Below, piece after piece: positions 1 through 50,073 of a DNA stretch of 64,000 nucleotides. Source of the stretch: the human T2T-CHM13v2.0 reference genome, Homo sapiens. Position numbers and translations under genes: made by a program. Location: assembly GCF_009914755.1 (NCBI RefSeq), contig NC_060928.1. One strand, 5' to 3'. The number at the start of each line of letters is the position of its first letter. Position 1 is the stretch's first letter. Below the pieces are notes generated by a model. That model was not told the origin of the DNA. It ran no database searches and saw only the letters and a program-made list of their open reading frames with translations.

Positions 1-169
1 GTAAATATGCAGAAAAGTAAATACAAATACATACATGAAAAGATGTTCAAAATACCACTATGCAGAGAAATATAAAGTAACAATGACAAATTACTTTACA
101 TCCATTAGATTATCAAGAACGAAGAGCTTTAGTTAACATGTTACCAAAGTTGTTACTGTAGCTTATAGA

Positions 170-640: not shown

Positions 641-1253
641 GCAATGAACAAACACTGACCACTAGAACAGATGCTAATAAAATGGAACTCTTCTATACTC
701 ATGGAGAATATGCGGATTTATAACAGCATTTCTGAGTTTCTGTAAAATGATGCATATGTATGATAATATTCCCCTTAACTGAGCAGTAGGTCACCATCTG
801 CATAATCTAAATAAACTTCCAAATATAAGGACAAATGTAAAAGAAGAATATCTATAACAACACTACTTATAGTGGAAAAAACTAGAAACAAGAGTGAATC
901 CTCAGCAATAAGGATATAATTAAGTAAAATGTGTTACATACACAGCGTAGTTTATGCAGGCTTTAAAAGAACTGAAATTAGATCTATGCCTGTTTTCTTA
1001 GAAGGATCTGTACTACATATTAAGCAAGAAAAGCAAGATTCAGGTGTTTATACTATGAACCCATTTTATGAAACAATGACTAAACCTCCACTCTATACAT
1101 ATACATATATTAGCCTAGTGAAAGGGAGGTACCAGTGTTGATAATGCTCATGTGGAGCTTGGGCAAGGTAAGGAAAAACATAATGCTCTTTTGAAAAATG
1201 TCCACACCAAAATCAACACAAATGATACAGTCCCCATTATGTACAATTATACA

Positions 1254-19981: not shown

Positions 19982-20096
19982 TTAAACAACAAACCTATTT
20001 TTAGTGGTGGAGCCGCTCTTAGTAGCTGTGTCTGCGTGGGACTGATAACCAATCACTATCTTTGGAGGAAGTCCTAACCTTTCCTTGTATACCCTC
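19982..20096 (-). CDS. EIF4E: EIF4E terminal exon 7, coding part (G-RVYKERLGLPPKIVIGYQSHADTATKSGSTTKNRFVV*; includes the MNK site Ser209)
   Basis: Long pyrimidine tract followed by cttctag|GAGGGTATAC. TAA stop at 19984-19982. Confidence 0.98.
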
Positions 20097-40827: not shown

Positions 40828-40934
40828 CTGTTCTGTAGGGGATGTTTAATATAGTGTTCTGGGTTAGCAACCTCCTGATTAGATTCCGTTTTCTCCTCTT
40901 CTGTAGTCGGGGGATTAGGAGTAGGGGTGGTTTC
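40828..40934 (-). CDS. EIF4E: EIF4E coding exon 2 (107 nt; ETTPTPNPPTTEEEKTESNQEVANPEHYIKHPLQN-R)
   Basis: Minus strand reads ccactag|GAAACCACCCCT...CTACAGAACAG|gtaagc. The translation matches eIF4E residues 7-42, including HPLQ. Acceptor phase 0, donor phase 2. Confidence 0.98.
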
Positions 40935-45945: not shown

Positions 45946-48331
45946 AATAAGGGTTGCTTTTTATAAAGTAGCTAAAAATGTTAAGTGAATGGTTACCTGG
46001 CTTGCCATTCTCCAAGTATTTATTCAGAGCAAACTATATGACCAGCCACTATGCTGAGTTGTTTCATATGATTTGTTTTAGAAAGAAAAAAATTTTTTAA
46101 ATTATATTTATCACTTTCCTCCTTCCTAAATTCCTTCTGATATATGTAGATATAGGTATTCCTCCCAGAACAATAATGATTAATGCAATATAAAGTCATT
46201 TTAAAGTAAATTGAAGTAAGGAAACCTACTTTTCCTACTTTTAAAGGTACTCCCAGATACCCTATTTCCCCTTTTCTGTACTGAAGGCATCATATCTTTG
46301 GCCTCATGAATGGCTAAAATATAGCATTGAGCTGCAACTATCTATTACCAAGGAACAGCATAAAGGACATTGAAATCAAGCATCAAAAAAGGCACAAAAA
46401 AGGGGGCTAGAGGGAGAAAGACATTCTATATCAGGCACATTTATTCACATACCATCTTCTGTGCTTCCAAATAATGCTGCAACTGACAGTCTGTATATAT
46501 CAGGCTCTGACTTCACTACTACAGTTTTCCTCTCATAACAGAAAAAGCAATCCCAGGTTTATCAGTCCCTGATGCACTAGGAGCCATACTGCAAAATGGG
46601 TAGCTCAACAAGACAGCCTGGATCCACCTCTAACCCCAACTTGATGAGTCCTTTAAGTCTTAAGATGAGTATGATAGGAGAAAACTTTCAGAGTACCATA
46701 GGGATTTAAGTGATCTAGGGTAAGTCCTTAAAATCCCTGTAAGGATCAGTTTCTTCCCTTGTAAAAAGTGCCGTGTGGGTTTTCATCAACAATCCAAGAG
46801 TTTGGCACTGAAGTGATCCATAACTGTCGGCTACCATGAGCAATCAGTACTTGAGATGACATTAATGTAAGAGTTTAGAAAGGTAAGAGCTGAGTAAATG
46901 CGGCATACTGAACTAGACTTCAAACTCTGGAGAAGTTCCAGTCCTTTAAATTTTAAGATGAGGAAAAAATTTTAAGAACAATAGAAGATAAATCACTAAC
47001 ATTCATATCCCAGTAATATCTGAACAAGGAGTGGTAACCTAAACTACCTAGGGTATGCTCTCTAAATTATTGTCCTGGCTCAATAATTTCTATCTATCCT
47101 CAGATCCTTACACCAGACCTTCCCCACCTTCACCCCACCCCCAATCATACACACAGTAAGTAGGGATATGAAAAGAGAAAGAACTCGTGATTAAGTTAGA
47201 AATAATTACCCAGATTACTGTTACCACACCTAAATAATTCTGATACCAACACTCTCCCCCTTCCTGATGACACAAAAATATAAACGTGTTCGGTCAATGC
47301 TACAGCACCAAATAATGGATAACAACATGATTGGTGACTCATATCCAGTAGTGCTTCCTTATATTACCCCTTCCTTCACTTTCTGTAGCTGAACTGGAAA
47401 ACCAGCTGTGTCCATATTAGAAATGTAAATGCTACATATGGCAAAGACAGCTGCAATTATTTCTACAAGGTACTAATACAACATTCTAGTAAATTGAAGT
47501 CACTATATTAAATAAAGGTATGAAATAATGAGCAGAAGGACAGACACAGTAAGAACAGAAAAGGATGGTGCTTTATGATTTTGAAAAGCTCACACCTCAT
47601 CCAAACTATGAGTTTTTACTTGATAGGGAACATTTACTAAGCAGTAACTACCAGGCCATGTGCTACATTATTTTCATACATATTATCTCAACATACTATA
47701 AATCATCTCAATATAGTCAATCTTCATAATCCCGTGAAACAACCATTATTCTCTCCACTCTTCAGACAAATCTGAAGTCCTGGAAAAGTAAACATGTCAT
47801 TTAAATCCAGGACTACCAGGGTTTACGGCTAAGAACACCACATGTCCTAGTTCTACCTGTTTGTTGTTTCAGTATAATTGTTAACAGAACTCTCACTCCC
47901 AAAGGTGGCCAGGACTGAATAATAAATTATATGGTTACAAAGATTCTCTTTCTAGGCAACATAAATCTATAATATATACTGTGCTCTGTTCTACAGCCTC
48001 AGGCTCAACACCTTTGCTCATCTTGCCAATGCATGTGACTGCCAATAAACTAGTAAAAAAGGCATGAATGGTACACCTCACCCTTCCTCCCAGACACACA
48101 AAAAAACCCACTACCAGGAAAAAAAGCAACTATATAGTGAGTTTGTATTATTATGCACAGCAGGACACTAAATACCCATTGGTCAAATATCTCACATATA
48201 CAGGTAAGTGTAAGTAAAAACCTCTTTTATGTGTACAAATAACTTTAATGAGAACATTATTTAATACAAATATGTAAACAGACTTCATACGTTTCTGTTC
48301 CTTGTAGTATCTACTGTTAGTTCTCAGTTTT

Positions 48332-48861
48332 GTCATTCATTTGACAAATTAAATCAGGCAAAGAAATGTACACAATCACATAAAAAGAATCACGTTCTCA
48401 CACTTGAACACACAGCAGTGGTCAAAAATAATGAAATGTAAACTGGACCCCATGATTTAATGCAAAAAACACCCTGTACATAAAAGTTTCAGGCTTCTAA
48501 CTCCACTGAATCCAGTACTAAATGTTCTTTATATTCCTCAGCTTCTTCCAAGTCCTTTTCACTTTCTAAAATCTGCCAAAGAACAGTATATGCAGCTTCC
48601 AACCTGTGCTGGCAAACAAGGCTTATCACCTGGGATTCTCGCAGACTTTCTGCCTGCTTTTTAATGGCATCATTTTCACCATCTTCAGCTCTCATTTTTT
48701 TTCTTTCCTTCTTGTTTTGCTTCTTTTTCATGCATCACTTTTTCTCGACCAACTGCTTCACCACAGGAGTCTTAATTTGTCTCAGGACAGGATCAGCCAT
48801 GGTCCCCCAAGCGCCATGAGAAGGGTGGGACAGAGAGCCAGGGTAATCATGGAGGAGGCGG
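48332..48861 (-). pseudogene. TBCAP3: TBCA (tubulin folding cofactor A) processed pseudogene in EIF4E intron 1, same orientation as EIF4E (probably TBCAP3)
   Basis: Intronless MADPVLRQIK-TPVVKQLV...MRAEDGENDAIKKQAESLRESQ...RLEAAY...EKDLEEAEEYKEHLVLDSVELEA*, closely matching TBCA (MADPRVRQIKIKTGVVKRLV...LDSVKLEA). ATG at 48800, premature TGA at 48737-48735, two compensating frameshifts. 5' and 3' UTR remnants are present, with a diverged 18-bp TSD at 48314-48331 and 48862-48879 (15/18 identical). Confidence 0.93.
48630..48731 (-). CDS. EIF4E: Putative pseudogene-derived alternative EIF4E coding exon (MKKKQNKKERKKMRAEDGENDAIKKQAESLRESQ, 34 aa)
   Basis: ATG at 48731, then 102 nt to TCCCAG|gtgata, a phase-0 donor compatible with the phase-0 acceptor of exon 2. 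34+211 = 245 aa. Confidence 0.55.
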
Positions 48862-49612
48862 CTGTCAGTCCTCAGTTCTTTTCAACAAACCATGCATTTC
48901 CTCACAGCACCCTCAAATATGTAAATTAGTATAATTAATTAACTAGTACACAAGAACAAATATAGTCTTACCACCTGTCTTGTAAGAAATAAAAAATTTG
49001 GTGAAAACACTGAAAAACTGCCTCAGGCTATTAAACTGTTTTGGTTTTTAGCTTTCAAACATCTATTTACAGTAAAGGAATACCAGCTAATCTGGCATCA
49101 CTCATGAAAGTGTGGCTGTGGATTTTGCAGTCTTCCTTATCTGTAATAAAGGATCAAAACTATGACTTTTATACTCCTCCCTTAACCGAGAAAGTTGAAA
49201 TAAAAAACACATGGAGATTTAGCAAAATACAAATCTTTCAACATTAAAACACTGCTCACATGGAAAAAATTTTTTCATGTAAAAGTCCCTGAGACATCAT
49301 ATATCAATCATGATTCAAAAGACAGTACTTCTTAAAGTGCTTTTCAATTAATATAAAATGGCAACTAAACAATAACAAAAAATCACTAGTAACTGGATTA
49401 CTAAAGAGTTGTGATGATGTGTACAAATTGTGCAGTGTCCAAAAATACTACAAAAATTCAATAGCTGTTTATTTAAATAATAACCTAAATACTTGATCAA
49501 AATAAGTAGCACTAACTCATGAGTGAATAGAGCTGATTAAGTTTGTTGGGCTATAGCTAAATATTTACATTTCTGGATACTCAGCAAGCTATACTTGAAC
49601 ACATTTTATTAA

Positions 49613-49901
<289 letters not shown>

Positions 49902-49920
49902 TGAACTCCTCCTGACCTCA

Positions 49921-50073
<153 letters not shown>

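What the first reader, a model, noticed from the sequence alone, without database searches (positions are those of the whole stretch)
48630..48800. TBCA retrocopy can donate a new N-terminus to eIF4E (pseudogene-host chimera)
Seen in sequence: the retrocopy is co-oriented in intron 1. An ATG at 48731 opens 34 codons ending at CAG|gtgata (48630), in phase 0 with the exon 2 acceptor. This predicts a 245-aa protein in which MATVEP is replaced by MKKKQNKKERKKMRAEDGENDAIKKQAESLRESQ and the cap-binding core is intact. The first 12 residues are the off-frame reading between two compensating frameshifts, so they are a de novo basic peptide; the rest is in-frame TBCA sequence. Inference: KKKQNKKERKK resembles an NLS or RNA-binding patch and could relocalise eIF4E, which has established nuclear mRNA-export roles. 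I recall a 245-aa predicted EIF4E isoform in annotation but have not verified it, and I know of no functional study.
Basis: partly seen in the sequence, partly recalled or inferred. Interest (0 to 1): 0.8.

Follow-up and report, generated by a model that had tools for sequence, protein, structure and literature searches.

The report
Annotated EIF4E exon from TBCA pseudogene
An old, dead copy of the tubulin-chaperone gene TBCA sitting inside the first intron of EIF4E supplies an alternative exon and a possible new protein start, but this exon is already in the public annotation and looks poorly suited to being translated.

Summary
On the minus strand, ATG 48731 opens 34 codons that end at CAG|gtgata (last exon base 48630), in phase 0 with EIF4E exon 2. 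In-silico splicing gives a 245-aa ORF that stops at the annotated CDS end.

It is not new. The hub's RefSeq table already lists 48630-48911 as an exon of another EIF4E transcript.

- TBCAP3 is an old TBCA retrocopy bounded by target-site duplications (84% identity to the parent; K2P 0.14-0.18).
- The GT donor arose by two transitions in the retrocopy (CGG ATG to CAG|GTG).

Translation looks inefficient. Six ATGs precede the start. One is TBCA's own start in strong context, and its 21-codon uORF ends 3 nt before the weak-context ATG 48731. Met13 (48695) has better context and would drop the basic patch.

There is no sign of selection: a neutral simulation keeps the exonised codons open 68% of the time. 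The exon start follows an AG, so it may be an internal exon; the canonical AUG would then stop after 9 further codons.

No paper on this chimera was found. The NLS idea is untested. This is an ordinary, annotated retrocopy exon acquisition.

The parts
48630..48911 (-). Alternative EIF4E exon (282 nt): 50 nt of host intron (48911-48862, including the 5' target-site duplication) plus 232 nt of the TBCA retrocopy (48861-48630)
   Evidence: Hub RefSeq table lists 48630-48911 under 'exons of other transcripts'. Sequence. Length 282, a multiple of 3. Retrocopy boundary.
48630..48731 (-). 34-codon N-terminal coding segment of the predicted 245-aa isoform
   Evidence: Translation. Spliced ORF of 245 aa ending at 19982.
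48696..48731 (-). 12 codons (MKKKQNKKERKK) read out of the TBCA frame. The ATG is an off-frame ATG that also exists in the parent gene.
   Evidence: Alignment and codon table. TBCA codon 26 starts at 48732, so 48731 is offset by one base. 8 of 12 residues are K or R.
48630..48695 (-). 22 codons in the TBCA frame (TBCA codons 40-61, 5 amino-acid changes), starting with Met13 in better initiation context
48624..48632 (-). 5' splice site CAG|gtgata. The GT (48629-48628) arose in the retrocopy from ancestral CGG ATG.
   Evidence: at the codon that is now CAG the present parent has AGG, the chrX copy CGG and the chr1 copy CAG; at the next codon all three have ATG, and only TBCAP3 has GTG. 7 of 9 consensus matches.
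48330..48861 (-). TBCAP3 processed pseudogene (retrocopy of the TBCA mRNA, all four parent exons contiguous)
   Evidence: Bounded by the direct repeats. RefSeq gives 48333-48855 (hub table).
48862..48877 (.). 5' target-site duplication (16 nt)
   Evidence: family D2: 14 of 16 identical to 48314-48329.
48314..48329 (.). 3' target-site duplication (16 nt), preceded by a decayed poly(A) remnant
   Evidence: family D2. Sequence.
48735..48800 (-). uORF from TBCA's native start codon (gggaccATGg, strong context): 21 codons, with its stop TGA at 48737-48735, 3 nt upstream of ATG 48731
48685..48735 (-). Overlapping uORF from ATG 48735 (TBCA Met25 codon): 16 codons, running past both in-frame Met codons
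48912..48931 (-). AG dinucleotide (48913-48912) directly before the annotated exon start, with TACTAAT (48931-48925) upstream. This is a possible weak 3' splice site.
   Evidence: pyrimidines 11 of 18; 2.2% of window positions do as well.
40828..40934 (-). EIF4E exon 2, the acceptor of the junction (eIF4E residues 7-41)
   Evidence: Hub table.
48489..48731 (-). 80-codon ORF if the exon is not spliced (a TBCA C-terminal remnant)
   Evidence: PDB 1h7c_A E 1.1e-21. Pfam TBCA 30.6 bits against a cut-off of 30.3.

Best explanation
TBCAP3 is an old L1-type processed pseudogene of TBCA. It inserted in the sense orientation into EIF4E intron 1.

Neutral decay then did three things.
1. Two transitions turned the TBCA codons CGG ATG into CAG|GTG. 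This made a usable 5' splice site that happens to be in phase 0 with EIF4E exon 2.
2. Deletions of 1 and 5 nt put an off-frame ATG, already present in the parent, into the same frame as TBCA codons 40-61.
3. CpG decay of the former TBCA 5'UTR created extra upstream ATGs.

The result is the 282-nt exon 48911-48630 that RefSeq already annotates for an alternative EIF4E transcript. It is most probably a 5'-terminal exon driven by a weak promoter that is not a CpG island. Its longest in-frame ORF is a 245-aa eIF4E in which residues 1-6 are replaced by 34 residues.

I infer that this is a minor, evolutionarily neutral by-product. The transcript exists, but the 245-aa protein is made inefficiently if at all. 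If the frame is translated, Met13 (233 aa, without the basic patch) is at least as likely a start as Met1.

Shown here: anatomy, origin of the donor, frameshifts, uATGs, ORF length. Inferred: low translation, neutrality, first-exon status.
For: - Annotation: exon 48630-48911 is listed for another EIF4E transcript (hub table). The spliced ORF is 245 aa and ends at the annotated stop.
- Retrocopy nature: the 80-aa ORF hits TBCA 1h7c_A at E 1.1e-21 and Pfam TBCA. One contiguous stretch aligns across all four parent exons found on contig C5. A 16-nt target-site duplication flanks it, 14 of 16 identical.
- Age: 441 of 524 aligned bases are identical to the parent, K2P 0.18 (0.14 without CpG sites). 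The chrX copy gives 0.02 and the chr1 copy 0.12.
- Donor created in the retrocopy.
- Frameshifts of -1 and -5.
- Translation handicap: 6 of the 11 ATGs in the exon lie upstream of 48731. Among them, 48800 is in strong context and its uORF ends at 48735. 48731 itself is in weak context (T at -3, A at +4). 48695 is adequate. A strong out-of-frame ATG at 48682 opens a 73-codon ORF.
- No constraint detectable: NG86 dN/dS is 0.23 on only 10 changes in the exonised codons and 0.58 downstream. Neutral simulation keeps the exonised codons open in 68% of runs and codons 40-108 open in 30%.
- No CpG island: GC is 0.32-0.47 around 48911. The 445 nt upstream are single-copy in the genome, 1 match of 1, itself.
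- Literature: no paper on the chimera in searches. The one study of eIF4E1 protein variants I could read covered isoforms 1 and 3 only.
Against: - The annotated exon start is directly preceded by AG, with a TACTAAT about 15 nt upstream. Only 6.5% of window positions follow an AG, and 2.2% do so with an equal or better pyrimidine count. This argues that the exon is internal, not 5'-terminal.
- dN/dS of 0.23 in the 22 exonised codons is nominally below 1. With 4.5 synonymous and 5.5 non-synonymous changes it cannot exclude constraint.
- TBCAP3 read counts rose 5.9-fold in PBMCs after blood was held for 24 h (3 donors; PMC9675784 Table 3). This hints at regulated rather than noise-level transcription of this spot, though those reads are not shown to come from this exon.
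- An alternative N-terminus can change eIF4E behaviour: isoform 3 was recruited to stress granules less readily than isoform 1 (PMC5006505).
- uATG-rich leaders do not abolish translation. I have no RNA-seq, CAGE, Ribo-seq or proteomic data.
Confidence: 0.6

Rival explanations
1. The 282-nt exon is an internal cassette exon. Its 3' splice site is the AG at 48913-48912 in host intron sequence, and its 5' splice site is the retrocopy-born GT. It is included at low frequency in transcripts from the normal EIF4E promoter.

The canonical AUG in exon 1 then reads into the exon and stops after 9 further codons. The inclusion product would be an unproductive, NMD-prone ('poison exon') isoform, and the 245-aa ORF would be an annotation artefact of a 5'-incomplete cDNA.
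For: - AG|G sits exactly at the annotated exon start, with TACTAAT 15 nt upstream and 11 of 18 pyrimidines.
- Only 2.2% of positions in the window match this by chance.
- There are no CpG-island or repeat-derived promoter features at 48911.
- Exon 1 ends in phase 0 at ...GAACCG|gtgagt. A phase-0 read-in gives GAVRKCMVC then a stop.
Against: - The pyrimidine tract is weaker than all 7 annotated acceptors in the window (12-18 of 18).
- From recall, not from any call: RefSeq lists this variant as protein-coding (an NM_ record, isoform 4, 245 aa). Curators normally would not do that if the canonical AUG lay upstream.
- The hub table does not show an upstream partner exon inside the window.
Confidence: 0.25
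2. One reading: the chimeric transcript is translated from ATG 48731 into a functional 245-aa eIF4E proteoform. Its basic N-terminal 12-mer acts as a nuclear localisation or RNA-binding patch and changes where eIF4E works.
For: - The ORF is intact and the cap-binding core is unchanged.
- 8 of the first 12 residues are K or R, and two K(K/R)X(K/R) matches are present.
- Solved eIF4E chains of 192-196 residues that start near residue 22-26 show that the core folds without the native N-terminus.
- A different alternative N-terminus (isoform 3) altered stress-granule recruitment (PMC5006505).
- The TBCAP3 signal is inducible in stressed PBMCs.
Against: - Six upstream ATGs and a weak-context start. 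The strong-context TBCA ATG's uORF ends 3 nt before it, leaving almost no room for re-initiation. Met13 is in better context and lacks the patch.
- The basic peptide is simply the off-frame reading of a Lys/Glu-rich region, and the same off-frame ATG exists in the parent.
- There is no significant constraint.
- None of the 4 peptide strings searched occurs in the searched literature.
- D6RBW1, a TrEMBL EIF4E entry, is listed with PE=3 in the one paper that cites it. Its length was not shown there, so I cannot confirm it is this isoform.
Confidence: 0.1

Closest known systems
RefSeq alternative EIF4E transcript carrying exon 48630-48911 (hub annotation; from recall this is transcript variant 4 / isoform 4, 245 aa)
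   Same: It is the same object: identical exon end at 48630 and the same junction to exon 2. The ORF computed here is 245 aa.
   Different: The annotation does not say that the donor, the start codon and the N-terminal 34 residues derive from the TBCA retrocopy. It also does not comment on the six upstream ATGs or on the AG before the exon start. The accession and isoform number are recalled; searches for them found no paper.
[quoted passage not shown] 2008, PMC2584115; passages seen)
   Same: A sense-oriented retrocopy in a host intron supplies a new 5' exon. That paper also describes in-frame plus out-of-frame retrocopy sequence forming a new N-terminal coding region. It counted 10 such 5'-exon events (1% of expressed retrocopy events).
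   Different: EIF4E and TBCA do not occur in that paper's main text (0 occurrences each).
CSMD3 / retro_hsap_4001 (Kubiak et al. 2020, PMC7290577, section 3.3.4 read)
   Same: A retrocopy in the host locus gives alternative first exons and a new N-terminus (19 residues) to a host isoform.
   Different: That case has a reported tissue-specific (testis) expression. Here no expression data for the junction were available. TBCAP3 is catalogued there only as retro_hsap_3065, a known pseudogene. The stored supplement is cut and showed no Table S5, so I cannot tell whether the EIF4E case is in their list of 56 exapted retrocopies.
eIF4E1 isoform 3 (alternative N-terminus from an exon just downstream of exon 1; Frydryskova et al. 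2016, PMC5006505, passages seen)
   Same: Residues upstream of exon 2 are replaced by a longer alternative N-terminus while the core is kept. This shows that an N-terminal swap can change behaviour (52% against 75% of transfected cells forming eIF4E-positive stress granules).
   Different: That exon is not retrocopy-derived (its ATG and donor are visible near exon 1). It was cloned from cell lines and tested. The 245-aa form was not part of that study.

Membership tests
Processed pseudogene (L1-mediated retrocopy) of TBCA | Intron-less copy of the spliced parent mRNA | tested here: met
   One contiguous stretch aligns across parent exons 1-4, which lie up to about 85 kb apart on contig C5.
Processed pseudogene (L1-mediated retrocopy) of TBCA | Flanking target-site duplications | tested here: met
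   16-nt direct repeat at 48862-48877 and 48314-48329, 14 of 16 identical, exactly flanking the copy.
Processed pseudogene (L1-mediated retrocopy) of TBCA | 3' poly(A) tail | tested here: inconclusive
   Only a short A-rich remnant (caaaa) lies between the end of homology and the 3' duplication. The younger chrX and chr1 copies keep A runs of 11 or more.
Processed pseudogene (L1-mediated retrocopy) of TBCA | Disabled parental reading frame | tested here: met
   A 1-nt deletion near 48747 brings TGA 48737-48735 into the frame of the native ATG, so the native ORF is cut to 21 codons.
Pfam TBCA (PF02970) | Score at or above the gathering cut-off | tested here: met
   The 80-aa unspliced ORF scores 30.6 bits against a cut-off of 30.3, which is marginal. 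The 34-aa exonised segment alone gives no match. So the chimera carries a TBCA fragment, not a TBCA domain.
Retrocopy exon acquisition, new 5' coding exon (Baertsch Type I) | Retrocopy nested in a host intron, with part of it spliced to a host exon | tested here: met
   Nesting and orientation are from the hub table. The splice junction is taken from the RefSeq exon 48630-48911 (hub table). No reads were examined here.
Retrocopy exon acquisition, new 5' coding exon (Baertsch Type I) | Retrocopy-derived ORF in frame with the host CDS | tested here: met
   245-aa ORF through exons 2-7, ending at the annotated stop.
Retrocopy exon acquisition, new 5' coding exon (Baertsch Type I) | Exon is 5'-terminal (has its own transcription start) | tested here: inconclusive
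   An AG precedes the exon start. There is no CpG island. No cap or 5'-end data were available.
eIF4E family cap-binding protein | Conserved core (exons 2-7) retained unchanged | tested here: met
   Exon 2 equals residues 7-41 of solved eIF4E. The downstream exons are the annotated ones. Cap binding of the chimera is not testable here.
Classical monopartite nuclear localisation signal | K(K/R)X(K/R) core within a basic cluster (pattern recalled, not from a call) | tested here: met
   KKER at residues 7-10 and KKMR at 11-14; 8 of the first 12 residues are K or R. A pattern match only.
Classical monopartite nuclear localisation signal | Importin-dependent nuclear import conferred on a cargo | not testable with these tools
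   Needs a tagged-protein localisation experiment.

The most novel reading that the evidence does not exclude
An intronic, stress- or inflammation-responsive start site beside the TBCA retrocopy drives an EIF4E transcript in blood cells. That transcript is translated into an eIF4E proteoform of 245 or 233 aa. Its pseudogene-born N-terminus (a basic off-frame 12-mer plus a TBCA helix fragment) changes eIF4E's partitioning between cytoplasm, nucleus and RNA granules. A decayed pseudogene would then have given a new regulatory arm to a central translation factor.
Probability: 0.07. Interest if true: 0.65.

Novelty: already known. Interest (0 to 1): 0.22.

Why it matters
eIF4E is the cap-binding factor that limits translation initiation, and it is a cancer drug target, so any real proteoform with altered localisation would matter. 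Here the exon and junction are already public annotation, and the event belongs to a described class (retrocopy exon acquisition).

- a documented step-by-step origin (two point changes make the splice donor; two deletions make the frame);
- a concrete reason to doubt that the annotated 245-aa protein is produced in quantity;
- an open question for annotators: is the exon truly 5'-terminal?

The locus is a tidy teaching example of how neutral decay of a pseudogene can create a coding-looking host isoform. On present evidence it is not a discovery.

Tried and rejected
1. Finding parent TBCA exons 3 and 1 with short retrocopy queries failed. One search gave 2 matches (self and the chr1 copy) and one search gave 1 match (self). 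I solved this by fetching the interval on C5 and running local blastn, and by using the younger chrX copy as the query.
2. The two weak PDB hits to designed TPR-like repeat proteins (E 9e-5 and 2e-4) were set aside. They are repetitive-helix matches with no single stretch passing the threshold.
3. A repeat-derived promoter upstream of 48911: the 445 nt upstream matched only itself in the genome, so this was rejected as far as that search can see.
4. A CpG-island promoter: rejected (GC 0.32-0.47).
5. Selection on the exonised codons: dN/dS 0.23 looks low but rests on 10 changes, and neutral simulations keep the frame open in 68% of runs. I do not count it as evidence.
6. Literature:
   - 'TBCAP3' gave 4 papers. 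Two were trypanosome TbCAP3; one was a list of pseudogenes; one was a PBMC expression table.
   - 'D6RBW1' gave 1 paper, a protein list.
   - 'NM_001331017' gave 0.
   - EIF4E + TBCA + retrocop* gave 0.
   - 'eIF4E isoform 4' gave 2 papers, off-topic by title; only the listing was seen.
   - Four peptide strings and two accessions gave only one table entry, for ENST00000505992.
   - TBCA-pseudogene terms gave 8 papers, none on this locus by title.
   - EIF4E + TBCA + pseudogene: 4 papers hold the terms, 3 were listed, none on topic by title.
7. Retrocopy reviews and tools had 0 occurrences of EIF4E or TBCA in the main text: PMC8071448, the FREDDIE preprint and Baertsch 2008.
8. A 2018 paper on eIF4E1/eIF4E3 splice variants that I recall (Mol Genet Genomics) is not held, so I did not see it.
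They may list this case.
10. The search of earlier findings was not open.
11. Primate conservation, RNA-seq junction counts, CAGE, Ribo-seq and proteomics cannot be reached with these tools.
12. I did not fold the 245-aa chimera, because a spliced protein is not a letter-for-letter product of the window.

Full report
**The observation**

On the minus strand, ATG 48731-48729 opens 34 codons, MKKKQNKKERKKMRAEDGENDAIKKQAESLRESQ. They end at base 48630 and are followed by gtgata. EIF4E exon 2 begins at 40934 after a pyrimidine-rich ...ccactag and reads ETTPTPNPPTTEEEK... in its first frame, so the junction is phase 0.

The exon 2 peptide aligns to residues 7-41 of solved human eIF4E chains. Only the six residues encoded by exon 1 are therefore replaced; that exon is visible as atggcgactgtcgaaccg|gtgagt. 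Joining the annotated exons by coordinates in a script gives an ORF of 245 aa from 48731, or 233 aa from the second Met at 48695. Its stop codon ends at 19982, the annotated CDS end.

**Already annotated**

The hub's RefSeq table lists 48630-48911 among 'exons of other transcripts' of EIF4E, and TBCAP3 at 48333-48855 on the same strand. The donor at 48630 and the overlap with the pseudogene are therefore public annotation.

From recall only, this is EIF4E transcript variant 4 / isoform 4 of 245 aa. The computed length agrees, but searches for the accessions found no paper. D6RBW1 is a TrEMBL EIF4E entry with PE=3 in the one paper that lists it. ENST00000505992 is an EIF4E transcript in one table. 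Neither source shows the sequence, so I cannot tie them to this isoform by a call.

**What the element is**

- The unspliced frame continues for 80 codons to 48489.
- That ORF matches human tubulin-specific chaperone A (1h7c_A, E 1.1e-21, residues 30-108) and Pfam TBCA at 30.6 bits against a cut-off of 30.3.
- A search of the window's own genome with the 523-nt pseudogene gave 6 matches: itself, a full-length copy on C23 (chrX, 82%), a copy on C1 (80%), a partial copy on C5 at 158.9 Mb, and two exons of the parent gene on C5 at 78.17-78.19 Mb.
- Parent exon 3 was found by local blastn in the fetched interval.
- Parent exon 1 was found with the chrX copy as query.
- The pseudogene aligns as one uninterrupted stretch across all four parent exons.
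- It is flanked by a 16-nt direct repeat, 48862-48877 and 48314-48329, 14 of 16 identical.
- Only a short A-rich remnant of a tail is left.

This is a classical L1-type processed pseudogene spanning 48861-48330.

**Age**

Against the parent mRNA, 441 of 524 aligned bases are identical (57 transitions, 26 transversions). K2P is 0.18, or 0.14 when CpG sites are left out. The chrX copy is at 0.02 and the chr1 copy at 0.12. There are eight indels.

With recalled mammalian neutral rates of about 1-2 x 10^-9 per site per year, this places the insertion tens of millions of years ago, probably before the anthropoid radiation. This is an inference and I could not test it, because no primate genomes are held.

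**How the exon arose**

- Donor: at the first of the two codons the chrX copy has CGG, the present parent AGG and the chr1 copy CAG; at the second codon all three have ATG. TBCAP3 has CAG|GTG. A G>A change at a CpG gives the consensus A at -2, and an A>G change seen only in TBCAP3 creates the obligatory G of GT.
- Donor strength: CAG|gtgata matches 7 of 9 consensus positions. The six other annotated donors in the window match 6-8 of 9.
- Start codon: ATG 48731 is an off-frame ATG that also exists in the parent (T ATG AAA AAG...).
- Frame: a 5-nt deletion near 48701 brings it into the TBCA frame at codon 40 (48695). A 1-nt deletion near 48747 puts the native TBCA ATG (48800) into this same frame, but with TGA 48737-48735 in between.
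- The first 12 residues are therefore an off-frame reading of a Lys/Glu-rich stretch (8 of 12 are K or R).
- The next 22 residues are TBCA codons 40-61 with five amino-acid changes.

**Is there evidence of function?**

None that I could find.

- dN/dS (NG86) against the parent is 0.23 for the 22 exonised codons, but on 4.5 synonymous and 5.5 non-synonymous changes. It is 0.58 for the 45 codons that become intronic after splicing.
- In 20,000 neutral simulations at the observed divergence, the exonised codons stay free of stops in 68% of runs and codons 40-108 in 30%. The open frame is therefore unremarkable.
- The leader is hostile to translation. Six of the exon's 11 ATGs lie upstream of 48731.
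- Two of these (48850, 48817) sit where the parent has CpG-containing sequence without an ATG.
- The native TBCA start at 48800 is in strong context (gggaccATGg). Its 21-codon uORF ends 3 nt before 48731.
- ATG 48735 opens a 16-codon uORF that runs past both in-frame Met codons.
- ATG 48731 itself is in weak context (T at -3, A at +4).
- Met13 at 48695 has A at -3.
- A strong-context, out-of-frame ATG at 48682 opens a 73-codon ORF.

By the scanning model (established knowledge, not tested here), little initiation is expected at 48731. If the frame is used, a 233-aa product without the basic patch is at least as likely as the 245-aa one.

**First exon or internal exon?**

The annotated exon start, 48911, is directly preceded by AG (tttgag|GGTGCT). 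A TACTAAT lies about 15 nt upstream, and 11 of 18 positions in the usual tract are pyrimidines. In this window 6.5% of positions follow an AG, and 2.2% do so with at least that pyrimidine count.

Around 48911 there is no CpG island (GC 0.32-0.47), and the 445 nt upstream are single-copy. So the exon may be an internal cassette exon whose supporting cDNA was 5'-incomplete.

In that case the canonical AUG of exon 1 (phase 0 donor) reads GAVRKCMVC and stops. That would be an NMD-type product, and the 245-aa ORF would be an annotation by-product.

Two things argue against this. The tract is weaker than all seven annotated acceptors in the window (12-18 of 18). And, from recall, RefSeq treats the variant as coding. 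I leave this open at about 25%.

**Leads in favour of regulation or function**

- In one RNA-seq study, TBCAP3 was 5.9-fold induced in PBMCs prepared after blood was held for 24 h (3 donors). It sat in a module of inflammatory, stress and granulocyte genes (PMC9675784, section 7 and Table 3 read). The reads are assigned to the pseudogene and were not shown to come from this exon or junction.
- Frydryskova et al. 2016 (PMC5006505, passages seen) studied eIF4E1 isoforms 1 and 3 only. Isoform 3 has another alternative N-terminus, and it was found in stress granules in 52% of cells against 75% for isoform 1. N-terminal swaps can therefore matter.
- Solved eIF4E chains of 192-196 residues that start near residue 22-26 show that the core does not need the native N-terminus.

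**Comparison with what is known**

The event is a textbook case of retrocopy 'exon acquisition'.

- Baertsch et al. 2008 (PMC2584115, passages seen) counted 10 new 5' exons among expressed retrocopy events. They describe combined in-frame and out-of-frame contributions to a new N-terminus.
- Kubiak et al. 2020 (PMC7290577, section 3.3.4 read) report 56 exapted retrocopies, 18 of which contribute coding sequence. One example, in CSMD3, supplies a 19-residue N-terminus.
- Neither main text mentions EIF4E or TBCA.
- TBCAP3 appears in Kubiak's stored supplement only as retro_hsap_3065, a known pseudogene. That file is cut, and Table S5 was not visible.
They may list this case.

**Verdict**

The object is already annotated and belongs to a known class. 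The proposed function is untested and made less likely by the leader. Interest is low.

The most novel reading still open is an inducible intronic start site giving a pseudogene-born eIF4E proteoform with altered localisation. I put that at about 7%.

Noticed in passing
window 48911-48913 and 48925-48931 (minus strand): The RefSeq exon start is directly preceded by AG, with a TACTAAT about 15 nt upstream. The exon may be internal rather than a first exon, which would bear on whether the 245-aa CDS annotation is sound.
   Followed up: partly
L002 (G000:C23:32639753-32640295): A second, full-length TBCA retrocopy on chrX is young: 534 of 545 bases are identical to the parent, K2P 0.02. It keeps an A run at its 3' end. 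A search listing (PMC3448672, a paper on the DMD locus, one occurrence of TBCAP1) suggests it lies in DMD. The paper was not read.
   Followed up: no
L010 about 1822-1889 (parent TBCA exon 3) against L002 and L003: In this assembly the parent's codon 61 is AGG, while the young chrX copy has CGG and the two older copies have CAG. The parent itself changed (or varies) at this CpG after the chrX copy was made.
   Followed up: no
L014 about 849-926 (minus strand), roughly 120-200 nt downstream of EIF4E exon 1, outside the window: An ATG-initiated open stretch ends at a GT donor. The forward primer that PMC5006505 Table 1 gives for isoform 3 matches its start. This is the alternative exon of isoform 3, read by eye only.
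   Followed up: partly
window 48682 (minus strand): A strong-context ATG (ctgaagATGg), out of frame with eIF4E, opens a 73-codon ORF across the splice junction. It would compete for ribosomes that scan past 48731 and 48695.
   Followed up: partly
window 48489-48731 (minus strand): If the exon is not spliced, an 80-codon ORF encodes a truncated TBCA-like peptide, equivalent to TBCA residues about 30-108. Neutral simulation keeps this frame open 30% of the time, so it is not remarkable.
   Followed up: yes
TBCAP3 as a gene label (PMC9675784, Table 3): TBCAP3 read counts rose 5.9-fold in PBMCs after blood was held for 24 h, alongside inflammatory and granulocyte genes. This could reflect an inducible start site, a change in cell composition, or intron signal.
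   Followed up: no
window 49700-50000: GC content rises to 0.52 about 800-1100 nt upstream of the exon. I did not examine what this is.
   Followed up: no
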